The notes: a model not told the origin generated them from the sequence alone. A stretch of DNA of 44,021 nucleotides from Escherichia phage BEK2-2 (MN158213.1), one strand, 5' to 3'; positions 30,274 to 34,871 are shown, counted from the first letter of the stretch. A program made the numbers and translations.

Positions 30274-30515
30274 TTATCTCCGTCCTGTTGTTTGTTATCA
30301 TAGGGGCTTCGTCCCTGTTTAACGTGTATGCGCCGTCCGTCCAGGATGGCATTTTAGGCCGGGTGTTATATCTGCTAACGGCAATGATCTGCGTTATCGG
30401 ATTATTGCAAACAGGAGACGTATCTGACACCACCTGGACCGCGTTAATCTGGCTGTTTGCATTGCGCACGCTGCGTAATGCTGTTTTGAATGGGGTAAAA
30501 CATGCGATTCAGTGA
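30270..30515 (+). CDS. Second small membrane protein (holin or antiholin partner)
   Basis: 81 aa with two hydrophobic segments; overlaps neighbours in the lysis cassette. Confidence 0.45.
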   Translation: MIISVLLFVIIGASSLFNVYAPSVQDGILGRVLYLLTAMICVIGLLQTGDVSDTTWTALIWLFALRTLRNAVLNGVKHAIQ

Positions 30516-30993
30516 TAACGGTCTAAGATTTACGGCAGCATGGGAGACGTTCAGCCCAGTGCCGTATTTCGCGACTAAGAAAGAGCAGGCCCGCGGCCTG
30601 TACACCTGGGGCTATGGTCACACCGGCACTAACCCGCCTCGAAGCATTACCCGAGAGGAAGCGCTGGCGCTACTCAAGCGCGATGTGGCGTATGCCGAGG
30701 CTTGGGTGAATAAATACGCACATCCGAGCATTAACCAGGCGCAATTCGACGCGCTGGTGGACCTGGTTATCAATGCCGGTAATGGCCCGATCGTACCGGA
30801 TAACATCGCGAACGATTTCGATGATGCGGTGCGCCTGGGTGACTGGGCGAAGGTCCGAGCTACGCTGCCACAGTTCCGCAAGCAAGGCGGGGAAGTGCTG
30901 AAGGGGCTAGTCCGTCGAGCAATCGGCAGGCAAGCGCTATTCGACGGTAAGCAGTGGGACGTTGCCGAGAAAATCGGACGTAACGCAGCATAA
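30502..30993 (+). CDS. Endolysin, GH24 phage lysozyme (P22 gp19 / T4 E-like)
   Basis: Matches the lysozyme core by eye: catalytic Glu in AAWETF, GYGHTG, INQAQFDALVDLVINAG. Confidence 0.88.
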   Translation: MRFSDNGLRFTAAWETFSPVPYFATKKEQARGLYTWGYGHTGTNPPRSITREEALALLKRDVAYAEAWVNKYAHPSINQAQFDALVDLVINAGNGPIVPDNIANDFDDAVRLGDWAKVRATLPQFRKQGGEVLKGLVRRAIGRQALFDGKQWDVAEKIGRNAA

Positions 30994-31009: not shown

Positions 31010-31417
31010 ATGCTAAAAAGTATTCTTGATCATAACGCCGACGCGCTCGCCGCGCTGGCTAAAACCAAAGACCCAGGCGCACGCGCTATTGTAGCGGATA
31101 CGATCAGCCATGCGGGGGTCTTCGACGCGAAGTTACCCAGCCCGCCGGAAAGTAAGCCGGTGACAAGTGCAACCGTAACTATCACACCGGAATCCGCCGC
31201 AGTTGGTGCGAAGGCCACCGCTTCGGTTGCGGTACAGCCATCCGACGCAACTAACAAGGCCGGGTCGTGGGTGTCGTCTAATCCTGCCTGCGCGGCAATC
31301 GATCAGACTACCGGAGAAATCACAGCCCAAACGGAAGGTGGCGCCCACATCTTTTGGGTGGCATCCGACGGCAGCGGGGTGCTAGCGTCCGCCATCTTCA
31401 CCGTAACGAGAGCATAA
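31010..31417 (+). CDS. Ig-like (Big_2-type) domain protein
   Basis: Ser/Thr/Ala-rich beta-type C-terminal half resembling bacterial Ig-like domains; follows the endolysin gene. Confidence 0.45.
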   Translation: MLKSILDHNADALAALAKTKDPGARAIVADTISHAGVFDAKLPSPPESKPVTSATVTITPESAAVGAKATASVAVQPSDATNKAGSWVSSNPACAAIDQTTGEITAQTEGGAHIFWVASDGSGVLASAIFTVTRA

Positions 31418-31427
31418 GAATAAAACC

Positions 31428-31457
31428 ACAAGCCCGGTTAATTCCGGGCTTTTTATT
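31428..31457 (+). terminator. Intrinsic terminator ending the early/lysis operon
   Basis: Hairpin caagcccggttaattccgggctt followed by TTTTATT. Confidence 0.6.
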
Positions 31458-31661
31458 GCTTGACTTGCAACCAACATAGACGCCATACTGCGACCAACCA
31501 ACGAGAGGAGTATTACACTATGGCACGTAATGATATTTGGGTATTGGCAATCTGGTCCACCGCAGCATTTATCGGTATGGTTATTTGCGAATTGCTATAA
31601 CCCGCCGCAATAGGGACCGTGGTATATTGTCCTCGGTACCATAATCTGGAAGTGAATTAAT

Positions 31662-32804
31662 ATGCACCCGCAAACTAAAATCACCGACGAGCAATTGATC
31701 GCCGAGTTGCAATCCGGCACTACCGCGAAAGAGATTGCGAAGAAGTACGGAATTGCTCTTCGAAATGTCTACATGCGCAAAGCCCGCCTGTCGAAGAAAG
31801 GTATTGGTCACGGTAATGATGCCGTAATTCGTAAGCGCGTTGCCGATGGCTTCGGCGTTAAACGCGTATCCGCCCTGGTGCGCGGAAATGGCGAAGAGGT
31901 CATGTCGTGGGTTATCACTGAGCAGGACAAAGAGCGCCAGCTTGAAGCAATGCGCGCCGTTGTCGAGGGTATGAACAGCGAAATCACACCGGCAGCGCCA
32001 GTAAGCGCCCCACCAGTCCCGATCCAGGCACTTGACCTACTCAACCTGTACACAGTGTCAGACTTCCACCTGGGCATGTTGGCATGGGGCGAGGAGACTG
32101 GCGAGGATTGGGATATGGCAATCGCCGAAGACCTGTTTTACCGCTGGTTTGTCGAAGCCTTCGCACGCGCACCGGACGCAGGCACTGCCGTAATTAATAT
32201 CCTCGGTGATATGGCCCACTTTGACAGCCTTGATGCCGTCACTCCAGCCAGCGGTCACGTACTGGACGCGGATACCCGCTACCAGAAGCTGGTCCGCTAC
32301 ATGATCCGCATGGTGCGCAACGTGGTGGAACTGGCGCTGCAAAAACACCACAAAGTCAAACTGCTAATCGTCCAGGGGAACCATGACGAGTCGGGTATGA
32401 TTTGGCTGGCTGAAATGTTCAATACCCTGTACGAGAACGAGCCGCGCGTCGATGTGGACACGTCCCCGGACGTATACAAGATGGTGCAGCACGGCAAGAC
32501 CACGCTGTTCTTCCACCACGGGCACAAAGCGCGCTTCGATGCTATCGAAACCGTCATGATTTCTAAATTCAGACAGGCTTTCGGGGCCAGCGAGTACAGC
32601 TACGCGCATATAGGCCACTTGCACCACCAGAAGATTGTAGAATCCCGCAACATGATTGTTGAGCAGCACCGGACACTCGCAGCGAAAGACGCCTACGCCA
32701 GTCGTGGCGGTTGGATGAGCGGTCGCAGCGCAAACGTCATCACCTATAGCGCCAACTACGGAGAAGTAGCGCGCTTAACCATTAGCCCGGAAATGTTGAA
32801 GTAA
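31662..32804 (+). CDS. N-terminal HTH fused to calcineurin-like metallophosphoesterase domain
   Basis: Five metallophosphoesterase motifs in order: SDFHLG (DxH), ILGDMAHFD (GDxxD), VQGNHDE (GNHD/E), FFHHGH, HIGHLHH (GHxH); N-terminal segment TAKEIAKKYGIALRNVYMRKARL is HTH-like. Confidence 0.6.
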   Translation: MHPQTKITDEQLIAELQSGTTAKEIAKKYGIALRNVYMRKARLSKKGIGHGNDAVIRKRVADGFGVKRVSALVRGNGEEVMSWVITEQDKERQLEAMRAVVEGMNSEITPAAPVSAPPVPIQALDLLNLYTVSDFHLGMLAWGEETGEDWDMAIAEDLFYRWFVEAFARAPDAGTAVINILGDMAHFDSLDAVTPASGHVLDADTRYQKLVRYMIRMVRNVVELALQKHHKVKLLIVQGNHDESGMIWLAEMFNTLYENEPRVDVDTSPDVYKMVQHGKTTLFFHHGHKARFDAIETVMISKFRQAFGASEYSYAHIGHLHHQKIVESRNMIVEQHRTLAAKDAYASRGGWMSGRSANVITYSANYGEVARLTISPEMLK

Positions 32805-32934
32805 CGGCAACCCATAAGCCTCCCAGCCTGCCGATTTGGTGGGCTTTTTTGTGCCTGTTATAATCCCCCTTAGATGGCAGGGCCGTCTCCTATGTTGCCG
32901 ATGGTCGGCGCATATGAACAAAAGGGCTTATATC

Positions 32935-33486
32935 ATGGCAGAAATTAAAGTTAAGGGCCGACGCGCCAAACTGGACGGACGAGTAGCAGTAACCCCTCGC
33001 CGTAAACCAGGCGAGCAAACCGAGCACACCAATCTCGGACCTGAAATCGAGTACGGAAAGCGCCGTAAAGGCGGCAAATGTGGCCGCCCTACTGACTACC
33101 GATCCGTTTACTGCGACCAGCTTCGCCGCTATTTTGCCGACGCCGACGCATGGCAGGTCAACTACTCCGATAAAGGCGCTGCGCAAGTAATCCCCCGGAA
33201 CAAAATGCCAACCTTCGGCCGATTTGCCGCTGAAATCGGCGTGGGCGTAGCTTGCTTGTATCGCTGGGCGCGTGCGCATGAGGAGTTTGCCGAGGCGATG
33301 GCGGACGCAATGGAGTTGCAGAAAACTTTCCTGATGGAAGCTGGCGGCGTAACCATCGCGGCGGGCTTCGCTACGTTCCTGCTTAAAGCAAACCACGGCG
33401 TCCGCGACGATGTACCGCTGGATGACGACGAAGATGATAACGGCGACGTAGTTGTCGAACCTTCCGGCAAAGGTCAGGGTGAATAA
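32935..33486 (+). CDS. Terminase small subunit
   Basis: TFGRFAAEIGVGVACLYRWA HTH-like core and acidic C-terminus; immediately upstream of the large subunit. Start placed at MAEIKVKG (ORF track begins at 32836). Confidence 0.7.
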   Translation: MAEIKVKGRRAKLDGRVAVTPRRKPGEQTEHTNLGPEIEYGKRRKGGKCGRPTDYRSVYCDQLRRYFADADAWQVNYSDKGAAQVIPRNKMPTFGRFAAEIGVGVACLYRWARAHEEFAEAMADAMELQKTFLMEAGGVTIAAGFATFLLKANHGVRDDVPLDDDEDDNGDVVVEPSGKGQGE

Positions 33487-34871
33487 TGCGTAACTATGCG
33501 GCAGAACACCGCGCACTGGAACGCGCGATCGCAAAGCGCAACCGACCGCCACGCCCGACACGCGTTGCGCAGGCCGTCCGCCTTTACCAGCCTGATTGCT
33601 TGCCGCACCAGGTTGAACTACTGCGCGACACAAAGACTAAAATCCTCGGCCTGTGCTCCGGCTTCGGCGGTGGAAAGTCGTGGGTCGCTGCGCGTAAGGT
33701 CATCCAGCTTTTAACCCTGAACCCAGGTCATGACGGCATCGTTACAGAACCGACTATTCCGCTCCTGGTTAAAATCATGTATCCGGAACTGGAGAAGGCA
33801 TTCGACGAGGCTGGATTCCGGTGGAAGTTCAATAAGCAGGACAAGATTTATAGCGTGCTGGTGAAAGGGAAATGGACCCGCGTTATCTGTGAATCAATGG
33901 AGAACTATACCCGCCTGATCGGGGTCAACGCCGCATGGATTGTCGCCGATGAATTCGACACTACTAAGCAAGACGTCGCGCTGGCGGCGTATCACAAATT
34001 GCTCGGTCGTCTGCGTGCGGGCTTCGTCCGCCAGTTCGTCATCGTGTCAACGCCTGAAGGCTACCGGGCGATGTATCAAATTTTCGAGGTGGAGAAAGAC
34101 AACCAGAAACGCTTGATCCGGGCGAAGACCACGGACAACCACCATTTACCGGCAGACTTTATCGACACGCTGCGCAGTCAGTACCCGGCTAACCTGATTG
34201 ATGCGTACCTGAACGGCCTGTTTGTTAACCTTACGTCGGGCGCGGTGTACAAGATGTTCAACCGAGAGGAGAACGCCAGCACCGAAGAAGTGCAGCCGGA
34301 CGACACGCTGATTATCGGCATGGACTTTAACGTCACTAAGATGGCGGCGGTTGTGTACGTCAGACGGCAGCGAGTCACCGAGAACAAGGAGTTCCGCGAC
34401 GAGATTCACGCGGTGGATGAATTTGTGGACCTGTTTGATACCCCGGCTATGATTGAGGCGATCGAGGAGCGATACCCCGATCATTGTGCTGCCGGTCGTG
34501 TTGTCGTTTACCCGGATAGCAGCGGCAAGTCTCGCAAGACTGTCAACGCATCGTCGTCAGATATCGCGCAACTGGAAGACGCGGGCTTCGAGGTGGAGTA
34601 TGACAGCGTTAACCCGCCTGTGAAAGACCGATTGATCGCGATGAATACGATGATGTGCAACTCGAAGGGCGTGCGCCAGTATTTTGTCAACCTGGATAAA
34701 TGCCCTACACTAGCGAAATGTCTGGAACAGCAGGTTTACGACCTGAAGAAAGGCGAGCCGGATAAGACCGCCGGTGTGGACCACATGAACGATGCCGCGG
34801 GATACCCAATTGCGCACCTGTTCCCAGTGATTCGTCCGATCGCCGTTGTTCCAACTGTAGACTTCTACTAA
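33486..34871 (+). CDS. Terminase large subunit
   Basis: Walker A LCSGFGGGKS, Walker B WIVADEFD, C-terminal nuclease-type acidic residues (GMDFN). Confidence 0.9.
   Translation: MRNYAAEHRALERAIAKRNRPPRPTRVAQAVRLYQPDCLPHQVELLRDTKTKILGLCSGFGGGKSWVAARKVIQLLTLNPGHDGIVTEPTIPLLVKIMYPELEKAFDEAGFRWKFNKQDKIYSVLVKGKWTRVICESMENYTRLIGVNAAWIVADEFDTTKQDVALAAYHKLLGRLRAGFVRQFVIVSTPEGYRAMYQIFEVEKDNQKRLIRAKTTDNHHLPADFIDTLRSQYPANLIDAYLNGLFVNLTSGAVYKMFNREENASTEEVQPDDTLIIGMDFNVTKMAAVVYVRRQRVTENKEFRDEIHAVDEFVDLFDTPAMIEAIEERYPDHCAAGRVVVYPDSSGKSRKTVNASSSDIAQLEDAGFEVEYDSVNPPVKDRLIAMNTMMCNSKGVRQYFVNLDKCPTLAKCLEQQVYDLKKGEPDKTAGVDHMNDAAGYPIAHLFPVIRPIAVVPTVDFY

What the first reader, a model, noticed from the sequence alone, without database searches (positions are those of the whole stretch)
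31662..32804. HTH domain fused to a calcineurin-like metallophosphoesterase, upstream of the terminase genes
The protein has all five metallophosphoesterase signature motifs in canonical order (DxH, GDxxD, GNHD/E, H, GHxH) behind an N-terminal region of about 100 aa with an HTH-like segment. This fusion differs from lambda-type Ser/Thr phosphatase, which has no DNA-binding extension. Possible roles include a DNA-targeted Mre11/SbcD-like nuclease, a protein phosphatase acting on host regulators, or a phosphodiesterase degrading nucleotide second messengers. Its own putative promoter lies at about 31460-31500 after the early operon terminator.
Basis: partly seen in the sequence, partly recalled or inferred. 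Interest (0 to 1): 0.55.

Follow-up and report, generated by a model that had tools for sequence, protein, structure and literature searches.

The report
Phage HTH-fused metallophosphoesterase (T1 gp16 family)
This is a real, expressed gene of a Dhillonvirus coliphage that fuses a DNA-binding helix-turn-helix to a nuclease-like metal-dependent phosphoesterase; it belongs to a very large, already catalogued phage family that includes phage T1 gp16, and the family's biological role has never been tested.

Summary
ORF 31662-32804 (+, 380 aa) has an N-terminal HTH (aa 9-45), a beta-hairpin plus helix (aa 64-107) and a metallophosphoesterase domain (aa 121-380). The motif metal-ligand residues are invariant in 104 homologues at 32-81% identity.

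The window is a near-complete Dhillonvirus genome. The protein is 99% identical to Sodalis phage SO-1 gp58 and 45% identical to T1 gp16. It matches PHROG 704 ("DNA repair exonuclease") at E 7e-161, and homologues occur in 2061 of 50,697 phage records.

No Rad50/SbcC partner exists, and there is no room for a capping domain. The link to terminase is not conserved. In other phages the gene sits by lysis genes, Q-like antiterminators, or exonuclease, endonuclease VII, polynucleotide kinase and ligase genes.

Best reading (about 0.5): a stand-alone, HTH-tethered Mn2+-dependent DNA nuclease or phosphodiesterase of phage DNA metabolism, possibly used in host-DNA attack. The role is inferred, not shown. 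The finding is ordinary in kind, but the family is large and uncharacterised.

The parts
31430..31451 (+). Intrinsic terminator ending the upstream lysis/Ig-domain transcription unit
   Evidence: 8-bp GC-rich stem followed by a T-run. Invariant in 5 Dhillonviruses. Annotated as a terminator in phage PTXU06.
31460..31489 (+). Sigma-70-like promoter candidate, TTGACT-18 nt-CATACT
   Evidence: Consensus scan, 9 of 12 matches. Both hexamers are conserved in 5 Dhillonviruses. Function not shown.
31520..31600 (+). 26-aa hydrophobic mini-ORF (MARNDIWVLAIWSTAAFIGMVICELL) with a GAGAGGAG ribosome-binding site
   Evidence: Sequence read directly. The reading frame is kept in 5 Dhillonviruses, where several of the differences are synonymous. 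Maximum Kyte-Doolittle hydropathy 2.15. Expression not shown.
31613..31640 (.). Inverted repeat GGGACCG-N14-CGGTACC enclosing an extended -10-like TGGTATATT; possible operator or second promoter
   Evidence: Unique in the window and conserved in 5 Dhillonviruses. It is not a notable RNA structure (z 0.5). Function unknown.
31662..32804 (+). CDS for the HTH-metallophosphoesterase, 380 aa (T1 gp16 / PHROG 704 family)
   Evidence: ORF. PHROG 704 E 6.9e-161, full length. 3675 homologues. Orthologue detected by MS.
31686..31796 (+). N-terminal tri-helical HTH (aa 9-45), of sigma-70 region 4 / LuxR-GerE type
   Evidence: (GerE 1fse E 0.019).
31851..31982 (+). Beta-hairpin (aa 64-88) plus helix (aa 90-107). 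Belongs with the enzyme core: it is retained in an HTH-less homologue.
   Evidence: AlphaFold secondary structure. G77 and W83 are nearly invariant. The Campylobacter phage 317-aa homologue matches PHROG 704 from profile position 78.
32022..32801 (+). Calcineurin-like binuclear metallophosphoesterase domain (aa 121-380)
32061..32069 (+). Motif I, D134-F-H136
   Evidence: Invariant; coordinates.
32205..32225 (+). Motif II, G182-D183-M-A-H186-F-D188 (GDxxH)
   Evidence: G and D invariant; H186 and D188 conserved in at least 90%; coordinates.
32376..32390 (+). Motif III, G-N240-H241-D-E
   Evidence: N and H invariant; coordinates.
32511..32525 (+). Motif IV, F-H285-H286-G-H288
   Evidence: H286 invariant; coordinates.
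32613..32627 (+). Motif V, G318-H319-L-H321-H322
   Evidence: G318 and H321 invariant; coordinates.
32825..32845 (+). Intrinsic terminator directly after the gene
   Evidence: 9-bp stem followed by TTTTTTG. T1 gp16 is likewise followed by an annotated terminator.

Best explanation
The gene encodes a stand-alone, DNA-tethered binuclear metallophosphoesterase of the nuclease-like branch of the superfamily, the branch that holds Mre11/SbcD and PolD DP1.

Proposed mechanism:
- The N-terminal HTH binds DNA.
- The C-terminal domain holds two metal ions, probably Mn2+, through D134, H136, D183, N240, H286, H319 and H321.
- H241 and the extra conserved histidines (H186 of GDxxH, H285, H288, H322) help bind and cleave a phosphodiester.
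- The expected activity is exonucleolytic or single-strand endonucleolytic cleavage of DNA, without a Rad50/SbcC ATPase partner.

The gene is transcribed as its own small unit (promoter, 26-aa ORF, gene, terminator) between the lysis cassette and the packaging genes.

Its likely biological role is in phage DNA metabolism. The first possibility is degrading or nicking host DNA for shut-off, nucleotide supply or blunting of defence, as shown for the unrelated mycobacteriophage MPE Gp48 and suspected for T5 A1. The second is trimming replication or recombination intermediates before packaging.

Shown here: the gene, its conservation, the architecture, the fold neighbours and expression in a close relative. 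Inferred: the metals, the DNA substrate and the biological role.
For: 1. Metal-ligand residues are invariant across 104 homologues at 32-81% identity. Catalysis is therefore selected for.
3. When the family profile is searched against all PDB sequences, the only MPE-superfamily proteins it touches are Mre11/SbcD (E 0.2-1.3) and the P. putida nuclease MPE (E 1.2). PHROG 284 'exonuclease' matches at 2e-13.
4. Motif II is GDxxH, as I recall for archaeal and eukaryotic Mre11. Motif I is SDFHLG.
5. The HTH is present across the family. Homologues that lack it keep the enzyme core. A nucleic-acid-binding add-on fits a nucleic-acid substrate.
6. Neighbours in other phages include exonuclease, endonuclease VII, polynucleotide kinase and DNA ligase in Erwinia phiEa100, polynucleotide kinase in Klebsiella SBP, and DNA ligase and a Holliday-junction resolvase in Campylobacter F355. 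The census shows exonuclease, PNK, endonuclease VII, primase and polymerase genes nearby.
7. Precedents exist. Mycobacteriophage Gp48 is an MPE with in-vitro DNase activity that degrades host DNA (PMC12287305). T5 A1 is described as a predicted metallophosphatase resembling DSB-repair and proofreading nucleases (bioRxiv 2026.04.02.716235), and some A1 relatives also carry N-terminal HTH Pfam domains.
8. The EE09 orthologue was detected by mass spectrometry.
Against: There is no biochemical or genetic data for any member of this family.

The sequence-profile hits to nucleases are not significant. Pfam Metallophos models fall just below their gathering cut-offs.

There is no conserved gene partner or context. 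No specific relationship to T5 A1 was found beyond motif III (hhalign probability 24%).

The phage already encodes a 476-aa PD-(D/E)XK nuclease, so a recombination nuclease is not obviously missing.
Confidence: 0.5

Rival explanations
1. Nucleic-acid end-healing enzyme. The MPE domain removes 3'-phosphate or 2',3'-cyclic phosphate ends, or trims damaged ends. It would work with polynucleotide kinase and ligase to repair phage DNA, or tRNA cut by host defence nucleases.
For: The gene is immediately followed by a polynucleotide kinase gene in two unrelated phages, with a DNA ligase nearby in phiEa100 and directly upstream in Campylobacter F355. The census found PNK and nucleotide kinase among neighbours. 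The weak NCBIfam hit is to the ligase-associated PdeM (E 0.2). From my own knowledge, bacterial Pnkp uses an MPE-fold phosphatase domain.
Confidence: 0.15
2. Anti-defence phosphodiesterase that destroys nucleotide immune signals (cyclic oligonucleotides, cADPR isomers, cyclic mononucleotides).
Against: An HTH conserved across the family has no obvious use for a small-molecule hydrolase. The gene appears to be core rather than sporadic in Dhillonvirus (145 near-full-length matches). There is no PADLOC match (that library holds defence, not anti-defence, models). Known signal-degrading phage enzymes use other folds (my own knowledge).
Confidence: 0.1
3. Primarily a transcription regulator. The HTH binds promoter DNA, for example the inverted repeat at 31613-31640 over its own -10-like element, or late promoters. 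The MPE domain would act as a sensor or accessory module.
For: The HTH resembles sigma-70 region 4, LuxR and LysR. A conserved inverted repeat overlaps an extended -10-like sequence just upstream of the gene. Some annotators call it a transcriptional regulator. It sits next to Q-like antiterminators in 3 lineages.
Against: All catalytic residues are invariant, so enzymatic activity is the selected function. Homologues without an HTH keep the enzyme core. The inverted repeat occurs once in the genome, which would allow autoregulation at most.
Confidence: 0.1
4. Packaging accessory nuclease that assists terminase at pac cleavage, in the way HNH proteins assist HK97-like terminases.
For: The gene lies directly upstream of terS and terL in this genome and in Klebsiella SBP.
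Against: Adjacency to terminase is absent in T1, where gp16 is 32 kb from terS, and in Warwickvirus, Jerseyvirus and N4-like phages. Terminators and a separate promoter-like element separate it from terS. The N-terminal region shows no similarity to TerS.
Confidence: 0.05
5. Ser/Thr/Tyr protein phosphatase acting on host proteins, like lambda NinI.
For: It belongs to the same superfamily. It occupies a nin-like position next to Q-like antiterminators in some phages.
Confidence: 0.04

Closest known systems
PHROG 704 / phage T1 gp16 ('DNA repair exonuclease', 'putative phosphoesterase', 'winged helix-turn-helix domain-containing protein' in GenBank)
   Same: Full-length match at E 6.9e-161. 45% identity to T1 gp16 over 377 aa and 99% to Sodalis phage SO-1 gp58. 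Same HTH plus MPE architecture. In T1 and here the gene is followed by a terminator.
   Different: Nothing of substance; this protein is a member. The database name 'DNA repair exonuclease' is a transferred label, not a tested function.
Mre11/SbcD nucleases (including T4 gp47)
   Different: Only about 58 residues follow motif V, so there is no room for a capping domain. There is no Rad50/SbcC partner gene. An N-terminal HTH plus beta-hairpin replaces the C-terminal Rad50-binding elements. Sequence profiles do not match significantly.
Archaeal PolD small subunit DP1 (3'-5' proofreading exonuclease)
   Different: No DP2 partner. The model's N-terminal part is an HTH plus a beta-hairpin and helix, not the N-terminal OB fold that I recall for DP1. 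13% identity. The phage uses a family-A DNA polymerase.
Mycobacteriophage A10ZJ24 Gp48 (cluster A MPE)
   Same: A phage-encoded MPE with the five motifs. Experimentally it is a phosphodiesterase and DNase that degrades host DNA early and blunts defence (PMC12287305). It is the best functional precedent.
   Different: Judging from its motif residue numbers (D10, D41, H175), Gp48 starts directly with the MPE domain and has no N-terminal HTH.
Phage T5 pre-early protein A1
   Same: A predicted metallophosphatase said to resemble DSB-repair and proofreading nucleases, and genetically required for host DNA degradation. Some A1 relatives carry N-terminal HTH Pfam domains. This is a parallel HTH plus MPE design.
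   Different: 556 aa. The profile-profile comparison aligns only 55 columns around motif III, with probability 24%. It belongs to a different PHROG (1745) and is restricted to Demerecviridae.
Lambda NinI Ser/Thr phosphatase (PPP family)
   Same: A phage-encoded calcineurin-like enzyme. In some phages the family member sits next to a Q-like antiterminator, which from my own knowledge is where ninI sits in lambda.

Membership tests
Calcineurin-like binuclear metallophosphoesterase superfamily | Five motifs (DxH, GD, GNH[D/E], H, GHxH) in order, with conserved metal ligands | tested here: met
   Positions. D134, H136, G182, D183, N240, H241, H286, G318 and H321 are invariant in 104 sequences.
Calcineurin-like binuclear metallophosphoesterase superfamily | Pfam PF00149 or PF12850 score above the gathering cut-off | tested here: not met
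   20.1 bits against 21.5, and 21.7 bits against 27. These are near misses. 26 and 16 of the 104 family members match the two models at E up to 0.01.
Calcineurin-like binuclear metallophosphoesterase superfamily | Structural match of the model to solved metallophosphoesterase structures | tested here: met
Calcineurin-like binuclear metallophosphoesterase superfamily | Metal-dependent phosphoester hydrolysis | not testable with these tools
   Needs purified protein.
PHROG 704 (T1 gp16 family) | Full-length profile match | tested here: met
   E 6.9e-161, residues 5-380 against profile positions 2-390 of 390. 45% identity to T1 gp16.
Mre11/SbcD | Significant sequence-profile match to Mre11/SbcD | tested here: not met
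   No NCBIfam SbcD or Mre11 hit. The family profile against PDB gives E 0.21-1.3.
Mre11/SbcD | Capping domain C-terminal to the phosphoesterase domain | tested here: not met
Mre11/SbcD | Partner Rad50/SbcC ATPase gene | tested here: not met
   None is annotated in the Dhillonvirus genome or in T1, and none recurs among neighbours.
Mre11/SbcD | Mn2+-dependent 3'-5' exonuclease and ssDNA endonuclease activity | not testable with these tools
   Biochemistry required.
PPP Ser/Thr phosphatases (lambda NinI type) | GDxHG, GDxVDRG and GNHE motif variants, and a close structural match | tested here: not met
Class III cyclic-nucleotide phosphodiesterases (CpdA/Rv0805) and GpdQ | Closest structural or sequence neighbour among MPEs | tested here: inconclusive
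PolD DP1 exonuclease | MPE domain plus an N-terminal OB fold and a DP2 catalytic partner | tested here: not met
T5 A1 family (PHROG 1745) | Profile-profile homology across the MPE domain | tested here: not met
   hhalign probability 24%, 55 columns around motif III only.

The most novel reading that the evidence does not exclude
The T1 gp16 / PHROG 704 proteins are a widespread class of partner-independent, HTH-guided Mre11/DP1-like nucleases. Virulent phages of many lineages (Drexlerviridae, Dhillonvirus, Guernseyvirinae, Schitoviridae, some Autographiviridae) would use them to attack the host chromosome or otherwise disarm host responses. They may also autoregulate through the conserved inverted repeat at their own promoter. 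This would be a general host-takeover module that has gone unstudied even in phage T1.
Probability: 0.25. Interest if true: 0.55.

Novelty: new member of a known kind. Interest (0 to 1): 0.3.

Why it matters
About 4% of deposited phage genomes carry a homologue (2061 of 50,697 records). These include the classic phage T1 and many phages used in defence-system screens, such as the BASEL Dhillonviruses and SECphi4. No member has been characterised.

If the protein is a host-directed or intermediate-processing nuclease, it would matter in two ways. It would affect how phage sensitivity to DNA-damage-sensing or nucleotide-sensing defences is interpreted. It would also add a Rad50-independent design to the Mre11-like nucleases.

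As a finding in this window, however, it is an ordinary, already annotated core gene.

Tried and rejected
1. Single-sequence AlphaFold gave a useless model (pLDDT 40.6). It was replaced by an alignment-based model.
2. The sequence search against the PDB with the single protein returned only spurious repeat-protein hits.
3. PADLOC and NCBIfam returned nothing useful.
4. The search for related loci with the 104-sequence alignment failed. A 14-sequence alignment worked.
5. The neighbourhood census of 35 dereplicated loci found no conserved partner gene. My simple ORF caller also produced many spurious ORFs in GC-rich contigs.
6. I tested a specific relationship to T5 A1 and rejected it.
7. I tested whether the N-terminal region resembles the phage's own TerS. 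It does not.
8. I tested the 5' UTR for a stable RNA structure and found nothing unusual (z 0.5).
9. I asked whether a small hydrophobic ORF upstream is a family-wide feature. It appears in only 6 of 34 lineages.
10. I considered a homing endonuclease, given the HTH, the nuclease-like domain and the variable context. I rejected it because the gene is present in essentially all matched Dhillonviruses at a fixed site.
11. Literature searches found no functional study of this family. Escape-mutant data for SECphi4 do not involve this gene in the text I could read. The ApeA sensitivity pattern across phage groups was uninformative.

Full report
**What the window is.** The 44-kb window is an essentially complete, circularly permuted Dhillonvirus (HK578-like E. 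coli siphophage) genome. The region 31400-32900 is 91-94% identical at the nucleotide level to phages PaulFeyerabend (Bas15), GeorgBuechner, Gluttony, welsh, SECphi4 and about 140 others.

Gene order around the finding is as follows:
- primase/helicase and small ORFs;
- two holins and the endolysin (30502-30993);
- a 135-aa Ig-domain ORF (31010-31417);
- the target gene;
- terS, terL (33486-34871) and the portal gene.

**The observation.** ORF 31662-32804 (+) encodes 380 aa. The five metallophosphoesterase (MPE) motifs are at D134-x-H136, G182-D183-x-x-H186-x-D188, G239-N240-H241-D-E, H285-H286-G-H288 and G318-H319-x-H321-H322.

I aligned the protein with 103 homologues at 32-81% identity. These came from a search of 1.84 billion cluster representatives, which gave 4656 hits at E up to 1e-3 and 1131 at E up to 1e-30. 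In that alignment D134, H136, G182, D183, N240, H241, H286, G318 and H321 are invariant. H186, D188, D242, H285, H288 and H319 are nearly invariant.

The N-terminal HTH is weak by Pfam in this one protein. Among family members it is clear: Sigma70_r4_2 at 1.5e-9, GerE at 2.4e-8, and LysR-, Fis- and homeodomain-like HTH models in dozens of members. The family profile's best PDB hit is GerE itself (E 0.019).

Motif II is GDxxHxD rather than GDxxD. The upstream terminator ends the lysis/Ig-ORF unit, not a demonstrated early operon.

The 380-aa orthologue in Dhillonvirus EE09 (CDS39) was detected by mass spectrometry in lysates, with 3 peptides (PMC10673088). The protein is therefore made.

**Anatomy of the locus.** The elements are, in order:
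- a terminator at 31430-31451;
- a sigma-70-like TTGACT-18-CATACT site at 31460-31489;
- a strong ribosome-binding site and a 26-aa hydrophobic ORF at 31520-31600;
- a 60-nt spacer holding an inverted repeat, GGGACCG-N14-CGGTACC (31613-31640), around a TGGTATATT extended -10-like sequence;
- the gene;
- a terminator at 32825-32845;
- a TGTTATAAT extended -10-like element at 32856-32864, ahead of terS.

The whole upstream region is 93% conserved in five Dhillonviruses, while the coding sequence before the terminator diverges. The inverted repeat is unique in the genome. The 5' UTR has no unusual RNA fold.

**Structure.** Single-sequence AlphaFold failed. With the 104-sequence alignment the model reached pLDDT 93.1 and pTM 0.81. 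It shows a tri-helical HTH at aa 9-45, a beta-hairpin at aa 64-88 plus a helix at aa 90-107, a lower-confidence linker, and an MPE sandwich at aa 121-380.

Foldseek also puts Mre11 first, but its E-values barely differ among Mre11, Rv0805, DP1 and GpdQ. In BFVD the same fold recurs in many phage proteins of about 400 aa, several labelled 'DNA polymerase II small subunit' by virome annotators.

Searching the family profile against PDB sequences gives no significant MPE hit. The only MPE-superfamily entries below E 10 are Mre11/SbcD and the P. putida nuclease MPE.

Taken together, the protein sits nearest the DNA-nuclease branch of the superfamily. The margin is modest.

**Family and distribution.** PHROG 704 ('DNA repair exonuclease') matches full-length at E 6.9e-161. 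tblastn finds homologues in 2061 of 50,697 phage records:
- Dhillonvirus at 95-99% identity, including Sodalis phage SO-1 gp58 at 99%;
- Jerseyvirus and Kagunavirus at about 75%;
- Jedunavirus at 55%;
- Drexlerviridae at 42-47%;
- Erwinia phiEa100 (Autographiviridae) at 48%;
- N4-like Schitoviridae at about 34%, plus Rhodobacter and Vibrio phages;
- versions that match only from about residue 80-130 onward, without the HTH region, in Vibrio, Sulfitobacter, Roseovarius, Flavobacterium and Campylobacter phages.

Phage T1 gp16 is 45% identical over the full length. No paper that I could find tests any member.

The 317-aa Campylobacter protein matches PHROG 704 from profile position 78. The beta-hairpin and helix therefore belong to the enzyme core, and the HTH is an add-on.

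**Context elsewhere.** The position next to terminase is specific to this genus.
- In T1 and Warwickvirus the gene follows the Dam methylase and small ORFs and precedes the lysis genes. In T1 it is also followed by a terminator.
- In Jerseyvirus it lies in an opposite-strand islet inside the tail module.
- In an N4-like Vibrio phage it follows RNAP2 and precedes a MazG-like gene.
- In phiEa100 the order is exonuclease, endonuclease VII, MPE, polynucleotide kinase, a hypothetical gene, then DNA ligase.
- In Klebsiella SBP it is followed by polynucleotide kinase and then terminase.
- In Campylobacter F355 it follows DNA ligase and a Holliday-junction resolvase.

I ran a census of the two genes on either side in 35 dereplicated IMG/VR loci. 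No common partner emerged. The most frequent neighbours were Q-like antiterminators (3 loci), then exonuclease, PNK, endonuclease VII, endolysin, nucleotide kinase and HNH genes (2 each). No Rad50/SbcC-like gene is present in the Dhillonvirus genome or in T1.

**Mechanism.** The most likely reading is a stand-alone nuclease or phosphodiesterase that acts on DNA. The HTH would tether it to DNA, and a binuclear metal centre would do the chemistry. I give this about 0.5.

The support is as follows:
- the catalytic site is invariant;
- the nearest structural neighbours are nucleases;
- motif II is the GDxxH variant;
- the HTH is fused across the family;
- DNA-metabolism genes recur nearby in other phages;
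- there are two phage precedents.

The first precedent is mycobacteriophage Gp48, an MPE shown to be a DNase that degrades host DNA and blunts defence. The second is T5 A1, a predicted metallophosphatase needed for host DNA degradation, some of whose relatives also carry N-terminal HTH domains. Profile-profile comparison shows no specific homology with the A1 family (probability 24%), so this is a parallel design rather than shared ancestry.

The biological role is inferred only. It could be host-DNA attack, or it could be processing of replication or recombination intermediates.

**Rivals.**
- End-healing with PNK and ligase (about 0.15) is suggested by the recurring PNK adjacency.
- Signal-nucleotide hydrolysis (about 0.1) is not excluded structurally, but it does not explain the HTH.
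- A mainly regulatory role (about 0.1) is contradicted by the invariant active site, although autoregulation through the inverted repeat remains possible.
- A terminase helper (about 0.05) is contradicted by the non-conserved context.
- A PPP-like protein phosphatase (about 0.04) is contradicted by motif variants and structure.

**Comparison with known families.** The protein is a member of the calcineurin-like MPE superfamily and of PHROG 704. It works most like Mre11/SbcD/DP1-type nucleases but is not a member of those families. It has no significant profile match, no space for a capping domain (58 residues after motif V), no Rad50/SbcC or DP2 partner, and different accessory domains.

**Verdict.** This is a real, expressed core gene of Dhillonviruses. 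The architecture is not rare or new: it is catalogued and found in thousands of phages. What is missing is any functional study. I score interest at 0.3 and rate novelty as a new member of a known kind.

Noticed in passing
window 31520-31600 (+): A 26-aa hydrophobic mini-ORF (MARNDIWVLAIWSTAAFIGMVICELL) with a strong GAGAGGAG ribosome-binding site lies between the promoter-like site and the MPE gene. It is conserved in 5 Dhillonviruses. Small membrane-like ORFs also sit directly upstream of the homologue in T1 (23 aa, L092 40740-40811) and Jerseyvirus f18SE (59 aa, resembling a superinfection-immunity protein, L004 4741-4920). Across lineages, though, only 6 of 34 have one.
   Followed up: partly
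window 31613-31640: Inverted repeat GGGACCG-N14-CGGTACC surrounds an extended -10-like TGGTATATT, 22 nt upstream of the MPE start codon. It is unique in the genome and conserved among Dhillonviruses. It could be an operator for the protein's own HTH or a second promoter. As RNA it is not unusually stable.
   Followed up: partly
window 32856-32864 (+): A TGTTATAAT extended -10 element with a perfect -10 hexamer lies right after the terminator and about 45 nt before terS. It is a candidate promoter for the packaging and structural operon. The scan tool missed it because the -35 is poor.
   Followed up: no
window 31010-31417 (+): A 135-aa ORF after the endolysin shares its first 48 aa with PHROG 11068 and ends in an Ig-like domain. 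In Bas15, welsh and AV129 the corresponding ORF is only about 53-55 aa, so the Ig extension is variable. The 137-aa EE09 counterpart (CDS40) was detected by MS both in lysates and in infected cells.
   Followed up: partly
L010 2902-3159 and L011 2879-3091, against window 32801-32910: Some Dhillonviruses (PTXU06, AV129, and SO-1 as gp59) carry an extra 70-85-aa gene that overlaps the MPE stop codon and precedes terS. It is absent from this window, where the terminator follows the stop codon directly.
   Followed up: no
proteins P0343-P0385 (T5 A1 relatives): Relatives of T5 A1 that are about 530 aa long and 45-48% identical to it carry precomputed N-terminal HTH Pfam domains (HTH_23, HTH_38, HTH_7, CENP-B-like). 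An HTH plus MPE fusion has therefore arisen in a second, unrelated phage MPE family.
   Followed up: partly
L009 3497-8206 (Erwinia phage phiEa100) and L008 4995-6610 (Klebsiella phage SBP): In two unrelated phages the homologue is immediately followed by a roughly 165-aa polynucleotide kinase gene. In phiEa100 it sits within an exonuclease, endonuclease VII, MPE, PNK, hypothetical, ligase block.
   Followed up: partly
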